Part shown: positions 2,997 to 44,794 of the stretch, one piece after another
Position numbering within the stretch: the first letter of the stretch is position 1
Layout of the letters: each line of letters starts with the position of its first letter
Assembly (NCBI GenBank): GCA_018883165.1
Contig: VEQN01000004.1
Location: forward strand, 1 to 53,056
Length of the DNA stretch: 53,056 nt
Direction: 5' to 3'
Source of the DNA: Candidatus Tayloriibacteriota bacterium
GTDB lineage: Bacteria > Patescibacteriota > Minisyncoccia > Phycocordibacterales > CAIZLB01
Notes under the pieces: model-generated
What the model saw: the letters and a program-made list of their open reading frames with translations, nothing else
What the model was told of the DNA's origin: nothing
The model's database searches: none
Made by a program: the position numbers and the translations under genes

Positions 2997-5900
2997 CTAC
3001 TGTTCTGTAGTAACAGGTTCCGTATTACTAGATATAGCAGTGTTTGCGGTTGTCTCTGCAGGCGGAACTTCCTCCTGAGGCTGATCTGCAACTGGAGTAG
3101 CAGAATCTGAATCTGATGGAGCAGAGTCAGCCACCGGTTCGGAGTCAGAAGATGTCTCTACTGGTGGTGTATCAACAGATGAAGTCGCATTCTCAATTGG
3201 AGCTGTATATGGCGCCGCACCTGCATTGTGTATGAGCATTTGTTTAAATTGATCTTTTGTTACACACACGTCATCAACACAGATATCACCATTTACATTA
3301 AATTTTTGACCGCCATCCTTAAACCAAGCAACCATATTCTCGATTCCAGACTTTAAAGTATCCAATTGATTTTTCAACTCTTTTACCGCACCTACCATAA
3401 CAGCTGTTATCTGATTGTATGACAACTCTCTTTGATCACTGAAAAGATCTGTAGATATCTTTGATACTGCGTTTGGAATTGCTAATTCAACATCTTGTGC
3501 CAAGAAACCGAGTACCGGCTGACCTGTTGGATTATTCTTCCATGTAAACGAAACTGGCTGAAGTTTAGATATTGCATCTAGTGCAATTGTAGAATCAAGA
3601 TCGAACTGGACATCCTTTAGACGTGCATCTGAGACTGCATTGAACTCCGATGCCAATATTCTACCCTGTGCACGAATTGAATATGAATTAGTTCCCGCTG
3701 AGGTTCCTGTACCTCCAGATGAATTCAACCATCCATATGTTTGATATGAATCAACTGTTGAATACACATCGAGTGGGAATGCTGGTGTAGATGTCCCTAT
3801 ACCAATGTTTCCTGCAAGCAGTGTTCCTGCTGAACTTCCTTGAGCTCCTGTGCCAATTCCAAGGACACCACTTGATATACGTGAGATACTTGTATCAAGT
3901 GTACCAATGTTCGCAGTAGCATTTCCGAAAGCAAGTTTTCCTGTAGATCCGAGACGGAAGTCTGCTGGGCCACCAGAGCCTGTTGTATCTGTCACAATCT
4001 GCCATGTAGAACCGAGGGTGTTATGACTACCGGAAATTGTCTGATTTACACTTCCACCAATTGTGATATTAGCATTCACGCTAGCAGCCTGGCCAACGAT
4101 CAATTGACCACTGATATTACCCGCTTGACCGACCGTAAGAACACCAGCACTACTCATGTTAAGCAATCGTGCATTTGTAGATGATGCGATTGTAAGCAAA
4201 TCTGTTGTGGCACCTGATGCTCCAGTAACTGCAAATCGAGCAATTGGAGTACTCGTACCAACACCAATGTTTCCAGCTGCAATACTTGCACCAGAGACAG
4301 TGTTCATATTTGTACCCCACAACACTCCACCAATGTTTAATGTATAGTTTGAACTGCTTGAAGGTGTACTTACACCGTCACCGTTGTTACCAGATCCAAT
4401 AACAATATTACCTGTTCCACCAGTTAGGGTGTATCCAGCTTTCATACCCAGCGCCACGTTGTAATGACCACTCGTCAAACTGTTCAACGCGTATGAACCG
4501 ACAGCAGTGTTTGAAATACTTGTAGAAATAGCAGTGAGTGCATCATATCCAATCGCTACGTTGTCCGGCCCACTCGTTGAAGCATCAAGTGCATTCATAC
4601 CTACAGCAATATTTCTTTGTCCCGATGAGATTAACATACCTGCACCTCTACCAACAGCAACGTTGTTTGCACTTGATGAGTTTACGGATTGTAGCGCAGT
4701 GAAACCAATGGCAGTATTTGAGCTTCCCGACGCACCTGTATTACCCGCACCACCGACATATATGTTTGACTGGGTTGTTGAAGCAGCCAAGAGTAATGTT
4801 GTATCTCTTACCAAGAACGATCCTGCCGAACCTAATATATTTACACCTCCACTAATTGTACTAGTTCCAACTACCGCTAAAGTTGATACTGGGGAGGTTG
4901 TACCAATTCCAACATTACCAGATGTATCAATTGTCATTCTCGTGGTACTTGAGGTCATAAACGCCAATGACCTGCCCGATCCGGTACCTGAATTTTCAGT
5001 TCCAATTCTAAATACATTAGTATCCCAATTAAAGGCACCCCTTTCATAGTTAGTAGCAGAAGAATAGGTATTATACAATCTAAAATTTCCAGCGGTTGAA
5101 CCATTTCTAAGAGCAAGTGTCTGTGCAGCTTCTGAAACCATAACTGAAATATTCCCACCACCTTGATCGATTTGGAAACTTCCATACCCAGTACGAGAGA
5201 GATTATCTATGGCCACATTACCAGCCCCTCCAACAGTAATATTACCCCCTGATGCATACGCGCTTCGTAGACTTATAACGATACCTGAGCTAGATGACGA
5301 TGTCACAGAAAGGCCGTTCAATGAATTGATACTTGTGTCACCGTTTGCTGCAACCGTAAATACACCTGCGTTTGTCGATGAGGCTAATCTAAACAATTCC
5401 GTAGTAGCACCTGATGCACCTAGAACTGAGAGTCTTGCAACAGGGGTACTTGTTCCGACACCTACATTACCAATAGAATAAGAAATATCGTTTCCTGATG
5501 TCACCCATTGACTCGGGGTGACACCAAGTGACGAGGTTGCAACCCACTGTGCACCTGTACCTGTTGACTGAAGTACCATACCTGATGTTCCAGAATCCCC
5601 GTTTATCCTAAATCCTCCCGTAAGGTTGATATCACCTGCTACAGTTAATGCATATCCTGGAGTTGAGGTTCCAATCCCCACATCCCCCGCTTGTGTAATT
5701 CTAAACAAAGATGGTCCTGTTGATGATGCAAAGTCGACAACATCTTTTCCTGCTTGTGCTTGTACGAACAATGTAGTTGATGTTGAGGTTGTACCCATGG
5801 ATAGGTTTCGTACGATGAGGTCACGCCAGGTGCCAGTTGTGCCGCTATTTATTTCAAGTGCACCAGTAAATGCACGTGAAATTCCAGCATCATACGTCCC

Positions 5901-7730
5901 CGCTGTGGCATTATTCGTGTACTGTGTCCAACCTATTTGCCCATTTGCTGACAAAGCATGATGAGTGATATTTATGGCATGTTGAGCTCCAAGAGTAGTC
6001 AAACCCGACATTGGACCTATATGTATATTACCTGAGGTGGTTGTGATGCTTCCAGCCTGATTAATATTCAATGTCCCAACAGCGACGGTACCTGCGCTCG
6101 AAACAGAAAGTAATGCTGAGTTTGTTGAGGAGGCAACTGTAAATATCGGGTCTGTTGCACCAGATACACCAGTAACTGAAAGTCTCGCAGCCGGTGTAGA
6201 TGTACCTATTCCCAAACCACCATTAGCGGTAACAACACCAAGGATGGAATTATTTACATCGAGCCATTGTTGCAGATCAGCTGTTTGTCCGGTCCTCCCT
6301 TTTATAGCAACAGCAATTGTACTGGATGATCCAGAATCAAACATTGCAGTCTGCTTGACGGTCAACGCAGGACTCGAAGTACTGAATGTGCCATTAGATA
6401 CGTTCATGTATACCGCATATGATGGTGTGATATAGAATCTCTGTACATAACTTGAATCCAGAATCTCAAAAATATTTGATGATTGACCAGAAGCTGTCTG
6501 CAATATAAATCCACGAGATGTTGGGGATTGCATCTTAATAGCAAGATCTGCACTTGGTGAAGATGTCCCTATACCCACATTTCCACTGTAATAAATATTT
6601 GAACCAGATGTTACCCACTGACTTGAAGTTATTCCTAGAGAACTTGTAGACACATCCCCTGTAAGTCCTCCAATCGAAGTTACACCAGAGTTTGTGAGGG
6701 TGTTTCCACTCCAAGACAAACCGGTCCCTGCAGTAATTCTTGTGGAAGGTGTGTTCCAAAAAGCAGAAATATTTGTTGTTGATGCATATGCAAGTGCCCA
6801 TTCTGTTGTTGATGCAGTAAATGGAATAGCATATCCAGAAGTAAGCGAGGTGAGTCCTGTACTGTTATCATATGAAAGACCAGCAACACTTGTAGAGAAC
6901 ATTGACCTCACAGTTGAGGTAGAAACCATCGCTTGAATTGTTGAGGTTGCGGCATTGATCCGTGCATCAACGCGTGAGTCAGTAAAATACAAATTTGTAC
7001 CTTCCACTAAATCTGAGGTAGAGAGAGATGAGGTTGAAAAACTTAGAACACCAGATGATTGATCATACGTGAGTACACCACCAGATACAGAGACAGATGC
7101 TCTGGCGGACGATGTAGAGAATGACGTTGCCGGACTACTACTACCCAAAGCAGTAATCTGTTCCCGAAGTGGTGCAAGGGCCAATTCAATATCATTTACT
7201 ACCTGCCTTGAAGATGTAGTGTCAGATGATGGTATGGAGTATGTGCCACCCGATGTGGTATATGTGTTATATATATTCTGAGTTACGGGTTGCACGAGGA
7301 CACGCTCACCTCGTGCCAACTCCAAGTCACTTACTCTTTTTCTGAGCTGATTTAATTGAGTACTGAGTACTGTATCAACCTGTTTTGATGTTGGCGCTGT
7401 ATACGTAGGTAGAGACACACTTCTGCGAGCCACATTGTTAACTGGATTAGTTTCCTTTTCTTTTATAGTTTCAGTAACTCTGTCTCGAGTATAGATTGGT
7501 TCAATTGCTCCAGAGCCAAAATTCACCAACTTATCAAACACAGAACGAACAACTTCTGAAATCGAAGCGACTTGTGTCTTTGTGTCTGGATTGAATACTC
7601 TCTTTTTCTCGAGTTCAAATACCGGTTTTTTATATACCGCCTCGACAATTTTTTTTGAGTTAAGTGACTGATATACCCCTGAGATATCTATAGCTACAGC
7701 ATCTTTAGGTGTAGACAAAAAGATACACAT
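2997..7730 (-). CDS. Large secreted fibre/adhesin-like protein with C-terminal peptidase S74 intramolecular chaperone (true start probably upstream, see findings)
   Basis: Seven G[NDG]xG[IV]GT(S/T)(T/S)P repeats, an EGTNLYFTDSRVDARI fibre motif, N(T/V)A(I/V)G repeats, S74 motif SDARLK...GFLAQDVE...LSYNQIT, and an acidic Pro/Thr tail. Confidence 0.85.
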   Translation of the reverse strand: MCIFLSTPKDAVAIDISGVYQSLNSKKIVEAVYKKPVFELEKKRVFNPDTKTQVASISEVVRSVFDKLVNFGSGAIEPIYTRDRVTETIKEKETNPVNNVARRSVSLPTYTAPTSKQVDTVLSTQLNQLRKRVSDLELARGERVLVQPVTQNIYNTYTTSGGTYSIPSSDTTSSRQVVNDIELALAPLREQITALGSSSPATSFSTSSARASVSVSGGVLTYDQSSGVLSFSTSSLSTSDLVEGTNLYFTDSRVDARINAATSTIQAMVSTSTVRSMFSTSVAGLSYDNSTGLTSLTSGYAIPFTASTTEWALAYASTTNISAFWNTPSTRITAGTGLSWSGNTLTNSGVTSIGGLTGDVSTSSLGITSSQWVTSGSNIYYSGNVGIGTSSPSADLAIKMQSPTSRGFILQTASGQSSNIFEILDSSYVQRFYITPSYAVYMNVSNGTFSTSSPALTVKQTAMFDSGSSSTIAVAIKGRTGQTADLQQWLDVNNSILGVVTANGGLGIGTSTPAARLSVTGVSGATDPIFTVASSTNSALLSVSSAGTVAVGTLNINQAGSITTTSGNIHIGPMSGLTTLGAQHAINITHHALSANGQIGWTQYTNNATAGTYDAGISRAFTGALEINSGTTGTWRDLIVRNLSMGTTSTSTTLFVQAQAGKDVVDFASSTGPSLFRITQAGDVGIGTSTPGYALTVAGDINLTGGFRINGDSGTSGMVLQSTGTGAQWVATSSLGVTPSQWVTSGNDISYSIGNVGVGTSTPVARLSVLGASGATTELFRLASSTNAGVFTVAANGDTSINSLNGLSVTSSSSSGIVISLRSAYASGGNITVGGAGNVAIDNLSRTGYGSFQIDQGGGNISVMVSEAAQTLALRNGSTAGNFRLYNTYSSATNYERGAFNWDTNVFRIGTENSGTGSGRSLAFMTSSTTRMTIDTSGNVGIGTTSPVSTLAVVGTSTISGGVNILGSAGSFLVRDTTLLLAASTTQSNIYVGGAGNTGASGSSNTAIGFTALQSVNSSSANNVAVGRGAGMLISSGQRNIAVGMNALDASTSGPDNVAIGYDALTAISTSISNTAVGSYALNSLTSGHYNVALGMKAGYTLTGGTGNIVIGSGNNGDGVSTPSSSSNYTLNIGGVLWGTNMNTVSGASIAAGNIGVGTSTPIARFAVTGASGATTDLLTIASSTNARLLNMSSAGVLTVGQAGNISGQLIVGQAASVNANITIGGSVNQTISGSHNTLGSTWQIVTDTTGSGGPADFRLGSTGKLAFGNATANIGTLDTSISRISSGVLGIGTGAQGSSAGTLLAGNIGIGTSTPAFPLDVYSTVDSYQTYGWLNSSGGTGTSAGTNSYSIRAQGRILASEFNAVSDARLKDVQFDLDSTIALDAISKLQPVSFTWKNNPTGQPVLGFLAQDVELAIPNAVSKISTDLFSDQRELSYNQITAVMVGAVKELKNQLDTLKSGIENMVAWFKDGGQKFNVNGDICVDDVCVTKDQFKQMLIHNAGAAPYTAPIENATSSVDTPPVETSSDSEPVADSAPSDSDSATPVADQPQEEVPPAETTANTAISSNTEPVTTEQ

Positions 7731-19776: not shown

Positions 19777-22353
19777 TTACGCACCGTGACACTTTTTATA
19801 TTTCTTTCCGCTTCCACAAGGACATGGATCATTTCTACCAACCTTTGGGTCACTAGATATCTGTACGGGTTTTTCCCCTTCACCTAATTGCTTACCTGTG
19901 TCTCCAGAAATATATGCATCCGCATCAGGTTTTAGTTCAATCACTGGTACATTTTGTCCCCCGCCTACCTCACCCTGAACTTGTGCAAGTATTCGGATAA
20001 TTTCTGCATCTACTGAAACTTCCATATCTCTAAAGAGTCGAAGACCTTCTCTCTTGTATTCAACCAACGGATCTCTTTGTCCATATGCTCGAAGATTCAC
20101 ACTTGATCTCATGTAGTCCATAAACTCAAGATGATCAATCCAGTACAAATCAATTGTCTGCAGCATGACACCTCTTGCAGTTCTAAGGAATGCAAGCGTA
20201 TCTCCTGAAAGCTCTTCAATTTTCTTCCTGTTTTCAGCTATCGCTCGTTTTTCAACTTCAGAAGCCTTTAGGAGAATAGTATTAAGTACCACTTCCACCT
20301 GTTCTGGGTTACCAAGAAGTATCTCTTTTCTTCGCTTGTACACCTTAAGTCTCTGCTGATTTAGAACATCATCATATTCAAGTACGTGTCTTCGAGAATC
20401 AAAATGGAATCCTTCGATCTTTGTTTGCGCAGATTCGAGCGATCTACTGATGAGTGAGTGACCGATTGGTTCATCCTCAGGAATATTTAATCTACCCATC
20501 ATTTTTTTGATGGTATCGCTCGCAAAGATTCTCATCAGATCATCTTCCATAGATACATAGAATTGTGTCTCTCCTGGATCCCCTTGTCGTCCTGATCGTC
20601 CTCGTAGCTGATTGTCGATTCTTCTCGCCTCATGTCTTTCTGTTCCAATTACATACAAGCCACCAAGAGATTTAATCTCCTCATATCTCTTTTGCTGCTC
20701 TTCTTTACTTACTGATATTGACGGTGCGCCACCCAGTTTAATATCAACACCTCGTCCCGCCATGTTTGTCGCAATAGTTACTGCACCCCTCTTACCAGCC
20801 TCTGCAACAATCTCACCTTCTCGTTCAGCAAACTCAGGCTTTGCATTAAGAAGTGTATGTGGAACACCTGCTTTCTTTAGATATTCTGACAGAAGTTGGT
20901 TTTTCTCAATTGAAACTGTTCCAACAAGAACTGGCTGACCTTTTTGATTTAGCTCTTTAATCTTCTTGGTAATTGCCATGAACTTACCTTTCTCAGTTCT
21001 AAAGATTAAATCATTTCGATCAATTCTCTGTACCGGTCTATGTGTAGGCACTTCAATTACATCAAGACCGTATACTTTCAAAAACTCTTCGGAGCTTGTA
21101 ACACCGGTACCTGTCATACCTGCAAGCTTCGGATACATTCGGAAATAGTTCTGGAAGGTGATGGATGCATATGTTCGTGATTCTTTTTGAACTTTCACAC
21201 CTTCCTTTGCTTCAATTGCTTGATGTAGACCTTCTGACCATCGTCTGCCAGGTTGGAGTCTTCCCGTTGATGGATCAACAATCATTACCTCCCCACCTTT
21301 TACAATATATTCAACATCGTTGTTGTACAACGCTTTTGCTCGTACGGCAGTTTCGAGATGATGTACATATTTAATACCACCTTCTGTATATATATTAGAA
21401 ACACCGAGAAGCTTCTCAGCAAGATCAATACCCTCGCTAGTCATAGCGATAGTCTTAAACTTCTCATCTATCGTAAAGTGTTTGTCTTTCTCTAATTGTT
21501 TCGCAATATCAGCAAACGTATGATAGAGATTCTCAGAATCTGATGTTGGAGCAGAGATGATGAGTGGAGTTCTTGCTTCATCAATGAGGATTGAGTCCAC
21601 CTCATCCACGATTGCGTAGTAAAATGCTCGCTGACTAAGATTAATCTCGTTGTGTTCAATATTGTCTCGTAGATAATCAAATCCAAACTGATTGTTTGTA
21701 CCATATGTAATATCTGCATGATACGCTTCTCTTTTTGTAGATGGTTTCAAAAATTCATACCCCACTTTGAATGACCCCATCACATCCTCTTTCTCATCTG
21801 CCTCTTTTTCTTTTTTCGCTAATTCTTCAGGAGCAATATCTTTGGCACCAATATGTGAGATATCAAATATATATGACGCGTTGTCATTGATGACACCAAC
21901 TGAAAGACCCAGTGCATTGTAAATTTGTCCCATCCATGTTGCATCTCGACGTGCGAGATAATCATTCACGGTGATGACGTGTACACCTTTTTGCGCAAGT
22001 GCATTTAAGTAACACGCAAGCGTTGCCATCAACGTTTTTCCTTCACCCGTCTTCATTTCTGCAATCTTACCTTCATGCAAAATCATTCCACCAATGAGCT
22101 GAACATCATAGTGCCTTTGTCCAAGTGTTCTTCGCGAAGCCTCTCGAACAACAGCAAAAGCCTCTGGAAGAATTGTATCAAGACTCTCTCCTGCAACAAT
22201 TCGATCCTGAAACTCCTTTGTCTTTGATCGAAGCTCAGCATCTGAGAGTTTCTGAATTGAAGCCTCCAGTTCATTAATCTTTAAAACTGTCTTTTTGTAC
22301 CTCTTAATCTGCCTTGCAGAATATGAAGGAAATATTGTTTTTAGGATTCCCAT
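19777..22353 (-). CDS. secA: Preprotein translocase ATPase SecA
   Basis: MKTGEGKT, VDEVDSILIDEA, ATNMAGRGVDI, QLRGRSGRQGDPG, and C-terminal SEC-C motif RNDPCPCGSGKKYKKCHG. Confidence 0.98.
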   Translation of the reverse strand: MGILKTIFPSYSARQIKRYKKTVLKINELEASIQKLSDAELRSKTKEFQDRIVAGESLDTILPEAFAVVREASRRTLGQRHYDVQLIGGMILHEGKIAEMKTGEGKTLMATLACYLNALAQKGVHVITVNDYLARRDATWMGQIYNALGLSVGVINDNASYIFDISHIGAKDIAPEELAKKEKEADEKEDVMGSFKVGYEFLKPSTKREAYHADITYGTNNQFGFDYLRDNIEHNEINLSQRAFYYAIVDEVDSILIDEARTPLIISAPTSDSENLYHTFADIAKQLEKDKHFTIDEKFKTIAMTSEGIDLAEKLLGVSNIYTEGGIKYVHHLETAVRAKALYNNDVEYIVKGGEVMIVDPSTGRLQPGRRWSEGLHQAIEAKEGVKVQKESRTYASITFQNYFRMYPKLAGMTGTGVTSSEEFLKVYGLDVIEVPTHRPVQRIDRNDLIFRTEKGKFMAITKKIKELNQKGQPVLVGTVSIEKNQLLSEYLKKAGVPHTLLNAKPEFAEREGEIVAEAGKRGAVTIATNMAGRGVDIKLGGAPSISVSKEEQQKRYEEIKSLGGLYVIGTERHEARRIDNQLRGRSGRQGDPGETQFYVSMEDDLMRIFASDTIKKMMGRLNIPEDEPIGHSLISRSLESAQTKIEGFHFDSRRHVLEYDDVLNQQRLKVYKRRKEILLGNPEQVEVVLNTILLKASEVEKRAIAENRKKIEELSGDTLAFLRTARGVMLQTIDLYWIDHLEFMDYMRSSVNLRAYGQRDPLVEYKREGLRLFRDMEVSVDAEIIRILAQVQGEVGGGQNVPVIELKPDADAYISGDTGKQLGEGEKPVQISSDPKVGRNDPCPCGSGKKYKKCHGA

Positions 22354-22395
22354 AGTTCCCCCACTCTATCATATTTACCCCCCATTTGCACGAAA

Positions 22396-22425
22396 CAAAA
22401 ACACCCACTTTCGTGGGTGTTTTTG
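22396..22425 (-). terminator. Strong intrinsic terminator for the small Lys/Ala peptide gene
   Basis: Minus strand caaaaacacccac-gaaa-gtgggtgtttttg-tttc: 13-bp perfect stem, GAAA loop, U-tract. Confidence 0.88.
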
Positions 22426-22453
22426 CGATAACTGATTTAGTTATCTTGCGAAA

Positions 22454-22525
22454 TTACTTTCGCTTCTTAGCTGCTTTCTTTGCTTTCTTCTTAGCAACCT
22501 TCTTTGCCTTCTTTTTTGCTGCCAT
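22454..22525 (-). CDS. Tiny Lys/Ala-rich basic peptide, 23 aa (MAAKKKAKKVAKKKAKKAAKKRK)
   Basis: Hand translation from ATG (22525) to TAA (22454). Composition is almost only K and A; a dedicated terminator lies 28 nt downstream. Below the ORF-track length cutoff. Confidence 0.8.
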   Translation of the reverse strand: MAAKKKAKKVAKKKAKKAAKKRK

Positions 22526-22562
22526 GGTAGTGGTTGAAGTTAAGGAACTATTATTTGTAAGT

Positions 22563-22590
22563 GTTCATTATGCTGACCTCGCATATGAAC
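22563..22590 (-). promoter_or_regulatory. Hairpin in the probable 5' leader of the small peptide gene
   Basis: Minus strand GTTCAT-ATGC-gaggtca-GCAT-a-ATGAAC: 10 bp with one bulge. Confidence 0.45.
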
Positions 22591-22646
22591 CATGACTTAA
22601 TTATCATACACAATTGATATACTCTCAATATTTTTTTCAAAAAAAA

Positions 22647-22655
22647 TGTGGATAA
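22647..22655 (-). promoter_or_regulatory. Single perfect DnaA box
   Basis: TGTGGATAA on the plus strand equals TTATCCACA on the minus strand; intergenic. Confidence 0.4.
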
Positions 22656-22669
22656 CTTTTTATTCAACA

Positions 22670-22700
22670 AAAAAACTTTTGCATTACACAAAAGTTTTTT
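22670..22700 (-). terminator. AT-rich hairpin after the O-antigen-ligase-TPR gene
   Basis: aaaaaacttttg-cattaca-caaaagtttttt. Confidence 0.5.
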
Positions 22701-34975: not shown

Positions 34976-35746
34976 ATGATAACAACAATAATCGCTACAA
35001 AAAATGGAGAGAAATATATTGGTAAGGCTCTTGATTCTGTGTTCAAGCAGAGTGTGAGTAGTCACCCTAACTTTGAAGTCATCGTCATATCTGATGGATC
35101 AACTGATAATACGATCTCTTTTGTGAAAAACAATTTTCCGAAAGTAATCATCATTGAAAACAAAGAAAGCGTAGGCCCTGGTACCGCAAGAAATATCGGA
35201 ATTTCACATGCAAAAAATGAATACATTGCAATACTAGATGATGATGACTGGTGGATCAACTCGGATAAATTAAAGAATCAAATTGAATTTCTAGAAACAC
35301 ACAAAAACTGTCTCGTAGTCGGTGCAGAGAAAACGGAATTTGTATCAGAGAATGGCACACACCTATGGTGGTATACACATCAAACGGATACGAGAGTGAT
35401 TCATGACAACATGCTAGTGCGATGCCCTATCATTAATTCTTCTGTAGTATTTAGAAAAAGCGCATACGACTCCGTAGGTGGATATTCTGATTTACGACTT
35501 GCAGAAGATTACGATCTCTGGCTACGACTTGGTAAGATTGGTGATATTGCAAATATACCAAACACTGAAACTGCATATACACTGCGAAAAAACAGTGCAT
35601 CTGGGTCAAACGGAAAACACAGCACGAGACTTGCCAGAATAGTGCTTGGCTTAGTTAAAAAATATAGACAAGATTACCCTAATTACACCAAGGCATTGCT
35701 AAAGGGATACCTTAGAATAATTAAAAACTTTACGATAGGATTCTAG
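34976..35746 (+). CDS. Glycosyltransferase family 2
   Basis: SDGSTD, GPGTARN, ILDDDD and AEDYDLWLR motifs. Confidence 0.9.
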   Translation: MITTIIATKNGEKYIGKALDSVFKQSVSSHPNFEVIVISDGSTDNTISFVKNNFPKVIIIENKESVGPGTARNIGISHAKNEYIAILDDDDWWINSDKLKNQIEFLETHKNCLVVGAEKTEFVSENGTHLWWYTHQTDTRVIHDNMLVRCPIINSSVVFRKSAYDSVGGYSDLRLAEDYDLWLRLGKIGDIANIPNTETAYTLRKNSASGSNGKHSTRLARIVLGLVKKYRQDYPNYTKALLKGYLRIIKNFTIGF

Positions 35747-37563
35747 TCGTTGAAAATACTTCTTAGAACATCCTCGGCAACTTCTTCCTTCTTAGATACA
35801 TGCACATGTTTTGACGCATGATGCTCTTGCTGTTTGATGACATGATCCGACTTCTTGTGTTCAACTACAGGATCCGGCTTTGATGCTTCAACAGTCTTTA
35901 CTTCCTCTTGTTGTTGAGAAGCAGGTGCACTCTTCATTACACTAAGTAATGCATCTCGAAGTGCAGAAAGATTCTCGGGTTTTGGTGCCTTTTTATCTTC
36001 CTCCACTTCAGGCTTCAAGTAGCTCAAAGACATAGCCTCACGAAGCTTGTTTTCTCTAGCATTTGCTCTTTCAGTGTTATCCTTGCTATTCCTCTGCTGT
36101 TGAGGAGGTCGTTGTTGTGGCTGTTGTTGAGGACCACGAGCTTCCCTACTGCCCTGAAATTGCGGTTTTTGCCCTTCTGGACGCCTGTTTTGACCTTGTG
36201 ACGACGACTGATTCTGCCTTGATTGTTGATTATTGTTACCCCCTCCACCTCCCTGTGGCTGAGACTTACCGAATTGTGTCTGAATCCAACTTAACAATTC
36301 CTCTTCGACTTGCTGTCTCGGTCTAGCATATAGTGAGCGTGAAGAATCAATTATTTCTTTTACAAATGTTTTTTCAGGTTTTGGAATCGGTGGCATACCC
36401 GCTGCAGAGAACGGTGGTGATGTTACACCATCAATCATCAACTTAAGATACATCTGATATTTCTGTAGATTTACTATATCTTCAGCAGTGAACTGTGGCG
36501 CAAACTCTTTTTCTAAAACCTCAGCATCGTATGCACCGACTCTAAAGATACACATAGTACCTACGTTTCCGAATACCGCAGCACGAACCTCTTCCGTCAT
36601 TTGTTCAATGTATTGATGTGCAATATGTAAGTTCAACTTATATTTTCTTGCCTCAGAAAGAATATCTGCAAAAGATTCATTCGCAAATGACTGAAACTCG
36701 TCTACATAAAGGTAAAAGTTTGGAGCTTCAGCGAGTTGTTTTTCATTTAGATCTGCACGACTCATGGCACCGAGATATATTTTCGTAATGAGCATACTAC
36801 CCAAAAGGTTAGCGTTTGCTTCACCCACTCTACCCTTTGAAAGGTTGATGATGAGTATCTTTTTGTTATCCATCACATCTCGAATATCAAAAGATGATTT
36901 AGCCTGTCCGATGATATTTCGGATCAAAGGGTTTGCGACGAACTGACCTACTTTATTTTGAATCGCTGGTGCCGCTTCAGCAGCAAACTTGTCGGTATAG
37001 TTTGCATACTCATTTACCCAAAAAGATTTTACAGATGGATCTGAAATATGATTCACCACTTCTTTTCTAAACTCTTTGTCAGTAAGCATTCTGTTTACTC
37101 CTACAAGCGTAGATCCTGGATACTCCAAGAGTGCAAGCATAATGTTACCCAGAATGTATTCCATTCTTGCTGACCACGCATCAACCCAAATCTTCTTGAA
37201 GGCAGACATCATTCCACTGGCAACAAGATATCGTTGCTCAGGACCTACGTCTTCCATGACATTGAATGAGATTGGGTACTCCATATCGAAAGGAGCAAAA
37301 TATATTACATCCTTTATTCGATGTTCTGGAACATATTCAAGAAGCAGATCTGCAGACTTGCCGTGAGGATCCATAAAGCACACACCATCACCGTTTTGAA
37401 TATCTTGTATCGCCAAACTTTCAAGAAGTGTAGACTTACCCATACCTGTCTTTCCAATGGCATACAAATGTCTTGATCTATCTTTTTTCTTAATACCAAA
37501 ACGCACTCGCCTGTTACGAGCATCAGTCTCACCGAAATACACTACTTTTTCATCGTCATTCAT
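35743..37563 (-). CDS. VirD4/TraG/HerA-like P-loop ATPase (type IV coupling protein-like) with Gln-rich tail
   Basis: Walker A GKTGMGKS, DPHG, Walker B YVDEFQ, SEARKY, and AHQY..Q. Confidence 0.85.
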   Translation of the reverse strand: MNDDEKVVYFGETDARNRRVRFGIKKKDRSRHLYAIGKTGMGKSTLLESLAIQDIQNGDGVCFMDPHGKSADLLLEYVPEHRIKDVIYFAPFDMEYPISFNVMEDVGPEQRYLVASGMMSAFKKIWVDAWSARMEYILGNIMLALLEYPGSTLVGVNRMLTDKEFRKEVVNHISDPSVKSFWVNEYANYTDKFAAEAAPAIQNKVGQFVANPLIRNIIGQAKSSFDIRDVMDNKKILIINLSKGRVGEANANLLGSMLITKIYLGAMSRADLNEKQLAEAPNFYLYVDEFQSFANESFADILSEARKYKLNLHIAHQYIEQMTEEVRAAVFGNVGTMCIFRVGAYDAEVLEKEFAPQFTAEDIVNLQKYQMYLKLMIDGVTSPPFSAAGMPPIPKPEKTFVKEIIDSSRSLYARPRQQVEEELLSWIQTQFGKSQPQGGGGGNNNQQSRQNQSSSQGQNRRPEGQKPQFQGSREARGPQQQPQQRPPQQQRNSKDNTERANARENKLREAMSLSYLKPEVEEDKKAPKPENLSALRDALLSVMKSAPASQQQEEVKTVEASKPDPVVEHKKSDHVIKQQEHHASKHVHVSKKEEVAEDVLRSIFND

Positions 37564-42939: not shown

Positions 42940-42982
42940 GTGGGTATAAATATCAAAATTAATTTATTCCATAATAACACAA

Positions 42983-43007
42983 AACCTTCACATCGATTGT
43001 GAAGGTT
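42983..43007 (-). terminator. Probable terminator of the stand-alone 16S transcript
   Basis: aaccttcaca-5 nt-tgtgaaggtt followed by ttgtgtt on the minus strand. Confidence 0.7.
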
Positions 43008-43020
43008 GTGTATAGTATTA

Positions 43021-44794
<1,774 letters not shown>

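What the first reader, a model, noticed from the sequence alone, without database searches (positions are those of the whole stretch)
22396..22628. Unannotated 23-aa Lys/Ala peptide gene with its own expression signals
Seen: MAAKKKAKKVAKKKAKKAAKKRK (13 Lys, 1 Arg, 7 Ala), a 13-bp GAAA-loop terminator right downstream, and a candidate TTGAGA-N17-GATAAT promoter (22600-22628). Established: K/A repeats resemble histone H1 C-terminal tails and chlamydial Hc1/Hc2 DNA-condensing proteins; tiny basic peptides also occur as ribosomal proteins. Inference: a minimal nucleoid-compacting protein for an ultra-small cell, or a ribosome-associated peptide, possibly relevant to the unusual 16S 3' end.
Basis: partly seen in the sequence, partly recalled or inferred. 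Interest (0 to 1): 0.7.

Follow-up and report, generated by a model that had tools for sequence, protein, structure and literature searches.

The report
Tiny DnaA-box-controlled polylysine-like protein gene
A 23-residue lysine/alanine peptide gene upstream of secA is real: it belongs to a conserved, so far unannotated family in ultra-small Patescibacteria, has its own promoter preceded by a perfect DnaA box and its own terminator, and most likely makes a free-standing histone-H1-tail-like polycation that coats nucleic acid.

Summary
ORF 22454-22525 (minus strand) encodes MAAKKKAKKVAKKKAKKAAKKRK. It is followed by a 14-bp GAAA-loop terminator and preceded by TTGAGA-17-GATAAT. I found the same unit in 25 other Patescibacteria loci: 13-114 aa, 60% K+R, no acidic or aromatic residue, about 5-residue periodicity. 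It usually lies 79-149 nt upstream of secA within a Wzy/TPR-murB-[ORF]-(hpf)-secA block.

Translation is supported by the conserved M-[AP]-[AK]-K-K start, AAG enrichment (260/422 against 165 expected) and avoidance of slippery A-runs (9 against 34 simulated).

- A perfect DnaA box (TTATCCACA) in 14/23 loci (18/23 with one mismatch), ending 17-18 nt upstream of the -35 in 13 of them. It is the only perfect box in the 53-kb window.
- A GGTCGR motif about 45 nt before the ATG (16/23 leaders against 0.28 expected).
- secA appears to have its own extended -10.

The unit is therefore not a secA leader. None of 17 family peptides is in a 15-billion-protein collection. It fails the score cut-offs of the Hc2 and H1-like families.

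Best reading: a DnaA-controlled stand-alone H1/HU-tail-like DNA-binding polycation (inferred). A ribosome-associated role is the main rival. No link to the 16S 3' end was found.

The parts
22647..22655 (-). Perfect DnaA box TTATCCACA (preceded by AG), ending 18 nt upstream of the -35 hexamer
   Evidence: It is the only perfect box in the 53-kb window. The same box on the same strand occurs in 14/23 family loci (18/23 with one mismatch), against a background of 0.019 per 260 nt. 14 of the 16 perfect boxes in 218 kb of family loci lie at this site. The gap to the -35 is 17-18 nt in 13 loci.
22629..22646 (-). T-run then A-run spacer between the DnaA box and the -35 (possibly UP-element-like)
   Evidence: A similar T-rich then A-rich 17-18 nt spacer is seen in most loci when aligned on the box. 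Its function is inferred.
22623..22628 (-). -35 hexamer TTGAGA
   Evidence: TTGnnn is conserved at this position across loci.
22600..22605 (-). -10 hexamer GATAAT (17-nt spacer)
   Evidence: GATAAT is found at the equivalent position in 12 loci.
22526..22593 (-). 5' leader, about 67 nt (transcription start inferred about 7 nt after the -10); G-poor and with no Shine-Dalgarno sequence before the ATG
   Evidence: Between the close pair L005/L089 the leader is about 90% identical while the middle of the ORF has diverged. There are no substitutions here in near-identical strains.
22563..22590 (-). Local hairpin at the 5' end of the leader (GUUCAUAUGC...GCAUAAUGAAC) with the motif in its loop
   Evidence: Predicted. 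It is not conserved as a structure across the family: the helix control gave 6.05 against 5.29 +/- 0.72 bp, and RNAalifold predicted 0 pairs.
22573..22578 (-). GGTCAG, the window's version of the conserved leader motif GGTCG[AG], 53 nt before the ATG
   Evidence: GGTCG[AG] occurs in 16/23 leaders against 0.28 expected (maximum 3 in 2000 shuffles) and lies 38-54 nt from the ATG in 16 of 20 anchored loci. In intergenic DNA it is essentially confined to this leader. No covarying partner was found. Its role is unknown.
22454..22525 (-). Coding sequence for MAAKKKAKKVAKKKAKKAAKKRK (23 aa, net charge +14), stop codon TAA
   Evidence: Orthologues were found in 25 other loci. There is AAG bias and avoidance of A-runs. 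No variants were seen in near-identical strains.
22448..22463 (-). 6-bp hairpin GCGAAA-GUAA-UUUCGC with the stop codon in its loop
   Evidence: Predicted in the 216-nt fold. Its conservation was not tested.
22427..22445 (-). 3'-UTR hairpin GAUAACU-AAAUC-AGUUAUC
   Evidence: The strain variant at 22441 changes an A-U pair to G-U, so pairing is kept.
22393..22426 (-). Intrinsic terminator: 14-bp stem with an A-tract 5' arm and U-tract 3' arm, GAAA loop, trailing U-tract
   Evidence: z = -7.4. An equivalent hairpin of -13 to -31 kcal/mol follows the stop codon in all 23 loci examined, 1-57 nt downstream. Its pairing is maintained through changes on both arms in L005 against L089.
22368..22377 (-). 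Neighbouring feature, not part of the unit: -10-like TAAATATGAT 15-24 nt before the secA ATG (22353)
   Evidence: It aligns with TGnTAAAAT or TGCTAnAAT extended -10-like boxes at the same place in most family loci. It is inferred to be secA's own promoter.

Best explanation
This is a self-contained, monocistronic gene for a tiny, intrinsically disordered polycation. The polycation is in effect a free-standing histone-H1 or HU C-terminal tail with no folded domain attached. Shown: the unit (DnaA box, sigma-70-type promoter, leader of about 65-120 nt carrying a GGUCGR motif, K/A/R-rich ORF, strong terminator) is conserved across Paceibacteria-type Patescibacteria, and the ORF is under selection as a coding sequence. 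Inferred: DnaA bound at about -58 tunes transcription, so peptide supply follows replication-initiation status. The peptide carries a net charge of about +0.6 per residue, has no acidic or aromatic residues, and is built from 5-residue AKKA/PAKRK-type repeats. It would bind the DNA backbone without sequence preference, neutralising charge and helping to compact the chromosome in a very small cell. Selection acts on composition and charge rather than on sequence, which would explain why length drifts from 13 to 114 residues through repeat gain and loss. The leader motif is probably a gene-specific post-transcriptional control site, because it keeps a fixed distance from the ATG rather than from the promoter.
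For: The gene is real and translated. The ORF was found in 26 loci with a conserved M-[AP]-[AK]-K-K start and an in-frame stop. Among the 160 fetched secA loci, ORFs of this type in this position were found only in Patescibacteria-type loci; the few other hits were Arg-rich ORFs in other loci, not placed just upstream of secA. AAG accounts for 260 of 422 Lys codons against 165 expected from secA in the same genomes, and A-runs of 7 or more number 9 against a simulated mean of 34 and minimum of 22 in 2000 resamplings. There are no acidic or aromatic residues in more than 1000 pooled positions. Differences between close pairs are mostly synonymous changes or in-frame indels. Near-identical strains carry 9 substitutions in the flanks and none across 22442-22682; by my own arithmetic on that table, P is about 0.002 if they were spread uniformly. 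The unit is independent: a terminator follows the ORF in every locus, and an extended -10-like box then precedes secA. hpf lies between the ORF and secA in L017, L099 and L101, and the unit is displaced but intact in L008 and L037. DnaA control is supported, and oriC is unlikely because GC skew is monotonic. DNA binding is plausible: periodicity is 5.0 rather than 3.6; the only family-level similarities, all below threshold, are to H1-like and Hc2 DNA-binding proteins; and the 39-residue Lys/Pro/Ala tail of HbhA with AKKA repeats is reported as necessary and sufficient for sequence-independent DNA binding, as are HupB PAKKA tails (PMC10665949; PMC5683647).
Against: There is no transcript, proteomic or binding data, and no RNA run holds the locus. 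A polycation would bind RNA, ribosomes or polyphosphate as readily as DNA. The DnaA box is identified by sequence only, and DnaA binding and its direction of effect are untested. The box is absent or not detected in 5 of 23 loci (L001, L017, L081 with truncated flank, L099, L101). hpf, a ribosome factor, is a frequent neighbour, and a conserved leader motif is reminiscent of the autoregulatory operators of ribosomal-protein genes. Homology to known H1-like families cannot be established for low-complexity sequence, and the curated score cut-offs are not met.
Confidence: 0.5

Rival explanations
1. It is a ribosome- or rRNA-associated mini-protein, comparable to the tiny basic ribosomal proteins (bL36, bL34, Thx, bS22, bL37, archaeal/eukaryotic eL41) or to a hibernation accessory. 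It would fill an rRNA groove in the reduced Patescibacteria ribosome, and the GGUCGR leader motif would act as an autoregulatory operator.
For: The peptide is very small and extremely basic, like the known mini ribosomal proteins (my own knowledge). In the fuller form of the gene block it lies directly upstream of hpf (Ribosomal_S30AE). It has a gene-specific conserved leader motif at a fixed distance from the ATG. Its promoter and terminator suggest a highly expressed monocistronic unit.
Against: Length ranges from 13 to 114 aa and no positions are conserved beyond the first five residues, which is unlike a protein that fits a defined rRNA pocket. There is no match to any ribosomal-protein model in NCBIfam or Pfam. 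To my knowledge a DnaA box at the promoter is not a feature of ribosomal-protein genes. The leader motif has no supported structure. The only complementary 16S sites lie inside the rRNA, not at the 3' tail.
Confidence: 0.2
2. It is a generic intracellular polycation rather than a DNA-specific protein: a genetically encoded substitute for polyamines or a counter-ion for RNA, polyphosphate or condensates in organisms with minimal biosynthesis.
For: Selection appears to act on composition alone, and length and sequence drift freely. Patescibacteria have very reduced metabolism (my own knowledge).
Against: It does not explain the conserved DnaA box. The absence of polyamine synthesis or uptake was not examined here. 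This reading overlaps heavily with the best explanation and differs mainly in the target.
Confidence: 0.15
3. It is a regulatory upstream ORF or leader peptide for secA (SecM-like arrest peptide or Lys-sensing attenuator), in which translation of the poly-Lys ORF controls read-through of the terminator into secA.
For: The position immediately upstream of secA is conserved, at 79-149 nt in 17 of the 22 related loci. A terminator lies between the ORF and secA. Poly-basic nascent chains can slow ribosomes (my own knowledge).
Against: secA has its own extended -10-like box downstream of the terminator in most loci. hpf intervenes in L017, L099 and L101. The unit is intact but unlinked from secA, or on the other strand, in L008 and L037. 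The peptide has no signal or transmembrane segment with which to sense secretion. Codon choice avoids stall- and slip-prone A-runs instead of using them. No alternative antiterminator pairing is conserved.
Confidence: 0.04
4. It is not a protein gene: either a chance ORF in a purine-rich spacer or a small non-coding RNA.
For: The sequence is of low complexity, all three forward frames of an AAG-rich stretch tend to be open, and gene callers do not report it.
Against: The ATG, reading frame and stop are conserved in 26 loci despite extensive nucleotide divergence and in-frame indels. A-run avoidance and AAG bias are specific to the Lys frame. No acidic residue occurs. There is no Rfam match and no conserved RNA structure.
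Confidence: 0.04

Closest known systems
C-terminal Lys/Ala/Pro repeat tails of bacterial nucleoid proteins (mycobacterial HupB/Hlp PAKKA tail; HbhA residues 161-199)
   Same: They share AKKA/AAKK/PAKK-type repeats, almost no acidic residues and variable length. The isolated 39-residue HbhA tail is reported as necessary and sufficient for sequence-independent DNA binding (PMC10665949). HU tails average 111 residues with 29 Lys (PMC5683647). The window peptide contains AAKK twice and AKKA once.
   Different: In those proteins the tail is appended to a folded HU or coiled-coil domain. Here the tail is the whole protein (13-114 aa). The organisms differ (Actinobacteria against Patescibacteria). 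To my knowledge no DnaA-box promoter or GGUCGR leader has been described for those genes.
Chlamydial Hc2 (HctB; Pfam PF07382, NCBIfam NF038052) and Hc1, and Burkholderiales histone H1-like protein (NF038053)
   Same: They are stand-alone bacterial Lys/Ala-rich DNA-condensing proteins with repeat-length polymorphism. They give the only profile hits, all weak, for the longest family members.
   Different: Scores are far below the curated cut-offs (15-21 bits against 40-135). Those proteins are 125-200 aa, whereas most members here are 13-60 aa. Their expression is developmental in Chlamydia and has not been linked to a DnaA box.
[quoted passage not shown]
   Same: It has the same K/A/P composition, is disordered, and neutralises the charge of DNA. 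Its supply is coupled to replication (S-phase histone expression), which is conceptually parallel to a DnaA-controlled promoter.
   Different: There is no winged-helix globular domain here (no Pfam hit), and the gene is bacterial and about ten times smaller. The parallel in regulation is my inference.
Tiny basic ribosomal proteins (bL36, bL34, Thx, bS22, bL37, eL41)
   Same: They are 24-46 aa and very basic, and several were missed by annotation for years.
   Different: Each of those has a fixed length and conserved sequence. The present family has neither, and it matches no ribosomal-protein model.
SecM-secA and other arrest-peptide leaders of sec genes
   Same: A small ORF lies directly upstream of secA.
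   Different: There is no signal sequence or arrest motif, a strong terminator and a separate secA promoter lie in between, and the linkage to secA is dispensable.

Membership tests
Histone H1-like nucleoprotein Hc2 (Pfam PF07382 / NCBIfam NF038052) | Profile score at or above the curated cut-off (40 bits Pfam; 135 bits NCBIfam) | tested here: not met
   The best member (114 aa, L001) scores 20.9 bits in Pfam and 15.1 bits in NCBIfam. The window peptide has no hit at E<=10.
Burkholderiales histone H1-like DNA-binding protein (NF038053) | Profile score at or above 80 bits | tested here: not met
   The three longest members score 12.8-18.8 bits.
Linker histone H1/H5 | Winged-helix globular domain (PF00538) flanked by basic tails | tested here: not met
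   No Pfam domain was found in any member, and the peptides are too short to hold one.
HU/IHF proteins with a basic C-terminal extension | HU fold (PF00216) N-terminal to the Lys/Ala/Pro repeats | tested here: not met
   The ORF starts directly with M-A-A-K-K, there is no upstream in-frame coding, and no HU domain was hit.
Lys/Ala/Pro-repeat DNA-binding polycations (functional class, not a homology family) | AKKA/AAKK/PAKK repeats, near-absence of acidic residues, high net positive charge | tested here: met
   The window peptide has AAKK twice and AKKA once. The family is 60% K+R with 0 D/E and a 5-residue periodicity.
Lys/Ala/Pro-repeat DNA-binding polycations (functional class) | Demonstrated sequence-independent DNA binding or condensation | not testable with these tools
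   This needs EMSA or condensation assays with synthetic peptide.
Known mini ribosomal proteins (bL36, bL34, bS22, bL37, Thx) | Match to the curated family model; fixed length and conserved residues | tested here: not met
   There are no NCBIfam or Pfam hits, and length ranges from 13 to 114 aa. Caveat: profile searches have little power on 23 low-complexity residues.
SecM-type secretion-monitoring arrest peptides | N-terminal signal or transmembrane segment plus a C-terminal arrest motif, co-transcribed with and controlling the downstream sec gene | tested here: not met
   There is no hydrophobic segment (only 2 I and no L or internal M residues in the whole family). A terminator and a separate -10 lie before secA. 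The unit is unlinked from secA in L008 and L037.
DnaA-regulated promoter | Consensus 9-mer DnaA box TTATCCACA at a fixed position relative to the promoter | tested here: met
   A perfect box occurs in 14/23 loci and a box with one mismatch or none in 18/23. It ends 17-18 nt upstream of the -35 in 13 loci.
DnaA-regulated promoter | DnaA binding and DnaA-dependent transcription | not testable with these tools
   This needs EMSA or footprinting with Patescibacteria DnaA and a reporter assay.
Rho-independent (intrinsic) terminator | GC-rich hairpin followed by a U-tract, just downstream of the stop codon | tested here: met
   The window 3' region folds at -29.1 kcal/mol, z = -7.4. An equivalent hairpin is present in all 23 loci.

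The most novel reading that the evidence does not exclude
Paceibacteria-type Patescibacteria encode a replication-coupled 'minimal histone'. This is a free-standing H1-tail-like polycation of only 13-114 residues whose promoter is driven by the replication initiator DnaA, so that supply of the DNA counter-ion tracks DNA synthesis. That would be a bacterial analogue of S-phase histone expression and a key to how a chromosome is packed into some of the smallest known cells. A second, gene-specific control layer would act through the GGUCGR leader motif.
Probability: 0.3. Interest if true: 0.8.

Novelty: new variant of a known kind. Interest (0 to 1): 0.62.

Why it matters
Three points make this worth attention.

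1. It exposes a conserved gene family that standard pipelines do not report. It falls below gene-caller length cut-offs, is of low complexity, and none of the 17 members looked up appears in a 15-billion-protein collection. The affected lineage is one whose genomes are already thought to be largely 'dark'.

2. If the peptide is a nucleoid polycation under DnaA control, it offers a concrete and testable handle on two open questions. One is how ultra-small Patescibacteria compact and manage their DNA. The other is whether bacteria can couple the supply of chromatin protein to replication.

3. The module has an unusually clean conserved anatomy (DnaA box, promoter, GGUCGR leader, ORF, terminator). 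That makes it a good model for promoter and leader function in organisms that lack Shine-Dalgarno-based initiation and cannot yet be cultured alone.

Tried and rejected
- **Profile searches with the 23-aa peptide** (NCBIfam, Pfam, E<=10) gave no hits.
- **Sequence search of 5.8 billion proteins** with a 40-aa member gave one marginal hit, a mis-started call of the same gene. Homology search is uninformative for this composition.
- **Simple terminator scanner** found nothing. Direct folding shows the terminator.
- **Known RNA families:** nothing at Rfam gathering thresholds across the window except 16S. A permissive scan of the unit returned only terminator look-alikes far below threshold.
- **Conserved hairpin around the GGUCGR motif:** rejected. 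Enclosing helices are no better than at random leader positions (6.05 against 5.29 +/- 0.72 bp), there is no covarying long-range partner, and RNAalifold predicts 0 pairs.
- **Motif pairing with the 16S 3' tail:** no complementarity. The only complementary 16S sites are internal.
- **oriC at the DnaA box:** rejected. There is a single box and the cumulative GC skew is monotonic.
- **Amphipathic-helix or antimicrobial peptide reading:** rejected. Periodicity is 5.0 rather than 3.6, hydrophobic residues are almost absent, and there is no signal peptide.
- **RNA-seq evidence:** no RNA run holds the locus.
- **Literature searches** for Patescibacteria Lys-rich, H1-like or nucleoid proteins, CPR ribosome structures, and DnaA box combined with H1-like found nothing relevant.
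- **Not done:** structure prediction, because the peptide is below the 30-aa minimum and is expected to be disordered.

Full report

Yes. On the minus strand, ATG at 22525 to TAA at 22454 encodes MAAKKKAKKVAKKKAKKAAKKRK (13 K, 1 R, 7 A, 1 V). It is the most K/R-rich 22-residue stretch in all six reading frames of the window.

Twenty-seven nt after the stop codon, a 14-bp stem with a GAAA loop and a trailing U-tract (22395-22426) dominates the fold. The 3' region folds at -29.1 kcal/mol, z = -7.4, and none of 200 shuffles is as stable. A pattern scanner missed it because the U-tract pairs with a 5' A-tract.

TTGAGA-17-GATAAT lies at 22628-22600, with 10 of 12 matches. That alone is not above chance, since shuffles give about 4 such sites in 1.4 kb. 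Conservation validates it (section 4).

**2. What organism, and is the ORF conserved?**

SecA from the adjacent gene (19777-22353) retrieves Patescibacteria (CPR) genomes and metagenome contigs. The closest have only 60-66% SecA identity.

Scanning these loci for short K/R-rich ORFs gave a clear result. A short ORF starting M-[AP]-[AK]-K-K lies on the secA strand in 22 of them, usually 79-149 nt upstream of secA. Three more members turned up on closer reading: a GTG-start copy in L084, and displaced copies in L008 and L037. ORFs of this type in this position were found only in Patescibacteria-type loci. The few hits elsewhere among the 160 loci were Arg-rich ORFs that are not placed just upstream of secA.

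The 26 members range from 13 to 114 aa. Pooled composition is K 46%, A 23%, R 14%, P 5%, T 5% and V 4%, with no acidic and no aromatic residue in more than 1000 positions. The spacing of non-basic residues peaks at 5.0 residues rather than 3.6. The family is therefore built from (A/P)AKRK-type pentapeptide repeats and is not an amphipathic helix.

**3. Is it translated?**

No expression data could be obtained, so the evidence is evolutionary.

- **Conserved frame.** The ATG, the Lys reading frame and the stop are preserved despite strong nucleotide divergence. Between close pairs the differences in the alignable ends are mostly synonymous (AAG/AAA, CGC/CGA, ACC/ACT, TAA/TAG), and the indels are multiples of three.
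- **Codon choice.** AAG makes up 260 of 422 Lys codons, against 165 expected from secA codon usage in the same genomes. A-runs of 7 or more number 9, against a mean of 34 and a minimum of 22 in 2000 synonymous resamplings. Avoiding slippery A-runs only matters if the reading frame matters.
- **Population variants.** In near-identical strains from four freshwater or aquaculture metagenomes, the one diverged haplotype carries nine substitutions in the flanks and none between 22442 and 22682. That interval holds the promoter, leader, ORF and the first 3' hairpin. By my own arithmetic on the table, P is about 0.002 under a uniform spread.
- **No Shine-Dalgarno sequence.** This is not an argument against translation. 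Most long genes in the window lack one, and the 16S 3' end reads ...GGAAUCAUUCAAUU instead of carrying CCUCC.

**4. Anatomy of the unit**

Every member is followed by a strong A-tract/GC-stem/U-tract hairpin, 1-57 nt after the stop and within about 40 nt in all but one locus. In the L005/L089 pair the hairpin keeps its pairing through changes on both arms.

Downstream of that terminator, most loci show an extended -10-like box (TGnTAAAAT or TGCTAnAAT) 10-25 nt before the secA ATG. secA therefore appears to have its own promoter.

- **A DnaA box.** A perfect TTATCCACA, on the same strand and usually preceded by AG, occurs in 14 of 23 loci (18 of 23 with one mismatch). The background is 0.019 per 260 nt. 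Fourteen of the 16 perfect boxes in 218 kb of family loci are at this spot. In the window it lies at 22647-22655 and is the only perfect box in 53 kb. The box ends 17-18 nt before a TTGnnn -35 hexamer in 13 loci, and the -10 is GATAAT in 12. This places the box at about -58. Cumulative GC skew is monotonic across the window, so this is not oriC.
- **A leader motif.** GGTCG[AG] (GGTCAG in the window, 22573-22578) occurs in 16 of 23 leaders, against 0.28 expected and a maximum of 3 in 2000 shuffles. It lies 38-54 nt before the ATG in 16 of 20 anchored loci, while its distance from the -10 varies from about 20 to 80 nt. In intergenic DNA it is essentially confined to this leader. I could not support a structure for it. 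Enclosing helices are no better than at random positions, there is no covarying partner, and RNAalifold predicts no pairs. No Rfam family matches.

In the L005/L089 pair the promoter and leader are about 90% identical while the middle of the ORF has diverged with indels.

**5. Relationship to secA**

The recurring gene order is Wzy_C/TPR membrane protein, MurB, K/A ORF, (HPF, PF02482), SecA. Different lineages have lost murB and/or hpf from the block, and the window has lost both. hpf lies between the ORF and secA in L017, L099 and L101.

In L008 the unit lies 1.6 kb from secA. In L037 it is on the opposite strand, 2.4 kb away. Both still have a DnaA box and a GGTCGA-like motif. In L015 and L012 murB abuts secA, and in L007 and L014 hpf does, with no unit present.

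Together with the terminator and secA's own -10, this rules out a SecM-like leader or attenuator. The proximity to secA reflects inherited gene order.

**6. What it most likely does**

Shown: a conserved, independently transcribed, translated gene for a disordered polycation, with a DnaA box built into its promoter.

Inferred: the product binds nucleic acid non-specifically through charge.

I favour DNA (nucleoid) as the main target, at about 0.5, for three reasons:
- The DnaA box links expression to the replication initiator.
- The free drift in length and sequence fits a charge-based coating function rather than a fixed binding pocket.
- Equivalent Lys/Ala/Pro repeats are established DNA-binding modules. 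The 39-residue HbhA tail with AKKA repeats is reported as necessary and sufficient for sequence-independent DNA binding, and HupB PAKKA tails behave likewise (PMC10665949; PMC5683647).

A ribosome- or rRNA-associated role (about 0.2) remains possible, given the hpf neighbour and the operator-like leader motif. A generic counter-ion role (about 0.15) overlaps with the main reading. The secA-leader and non-coding readings are each about 0.04.

**7. Comparison with known families**

Functionally the peptide resembles H1/HU-tail and Hc2-type polycations. It is not a demonstrable member of any of them.
- The best profile scores are 13-21 bits, against cut-offs of 40-135.
- There is no globular H1 domain and no HU fold.
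- No ribosomal-protein model matches.

None of the 17 family peptides looked up is present as an exact sequence among about 15 billion predicted proteins. The one database hit is a mis-started call of the same gene. Literature searches found no description of it.

I rate it a new variant of a known kind: a tail-only, DnaA-box-controlled version of the bacterial H1-like polycation.

**8. Verdict**

Its nucleoid hypothesis is the better supported of its two ideas. The suggested link to the 16S 3' end is unsupported. The DnaA box and the GGUCGR leader motif are new observations that raise the interest. All functional statements remain inferences until the experiments listed under next steps are done.

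Noticed in passing
window 43225-43260 (16S rRNA 3' end, minus strand), and the start regions of the long ORFs across the window: The 16S rRNA ends ...GUGGAAUCAUUCAAUU and lacks the CCUCC anti-Shine-Dalgarno core. Consistently, 23 of 25 long ORFs show no Shine-Dalgarno-like motif in the 25 nt before the start. secA is a partial exception, with GGGGG 6 nt upstream.
   Followed up: partly
window 42940-44705 and the whole window: The 16S gene (43225-44705, minus strand) has no 23S or 5S gene and no tRNA next to it. Rfam finds only SSU rRNA, and ARAGORN finds no tRNA in 53 kb. The rRNA genes therefore appear to be unlinked.
   Followed up: no
window 22368-22377; equivalent positions in L002, L003, L081, L083, L085-L088, L090, L092: secA is preceded by an extended -10-like box (TGnTAAAAT or TGCTAnAAT) only 10-25 nt before its ATG. 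This implies very short or nearly leaderless secA mRNAs in these SD-less organisms.
   Followed up: partly
L017 3486-3845, L099 1965-2297, L101 2082-2456, L007 3557-3922, L014 upstream of secA: hpf (Ribosomal_S30AE) lies immediately upstream of secA in several Patescibacteria, as I recall it does in Firmicutes. The window's lineage has lost hpf and murB from this block.
   Followed up: partly
runs X1-X4, contigs partly overlapping window 22453-22534 (sections 7-8): Other contigs in the same metagenomes, some at 10-40x depth, align only over the Lys/Ala-coding stretch and continue into unrelated sequence. One loose end reads, in reverse complement, ATGGCAAAAAAACCCGCTAAGAAAGCAGCC, which translates to MAKKPAKKAA. 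This suggests further family members from co-occurring organisms.
   Followed up: no
window 2997-7730 (minus strand): A 1577-aa ORF has a C-terminal Peptidase_S74 (endosialidase chaperone) domain, a feature typical of phage tail-fibre or large surface proteins.
   Followed up: no
window 35743-37563 (minus strand): A 606-aa ORF shows weak but significant similarity to the TrwB-type type IV secretion coupling protein DNA-binding domain.
   Followed up: no
window 22656 and 22669: Near-identical strains differ by 1-2 nt indels in the homopolymer runs flanking the DnaA box: a T or TT insertion behind 22656 and a 1-nt deletion at 22669. The box itself is untouched.
   Followed up: no
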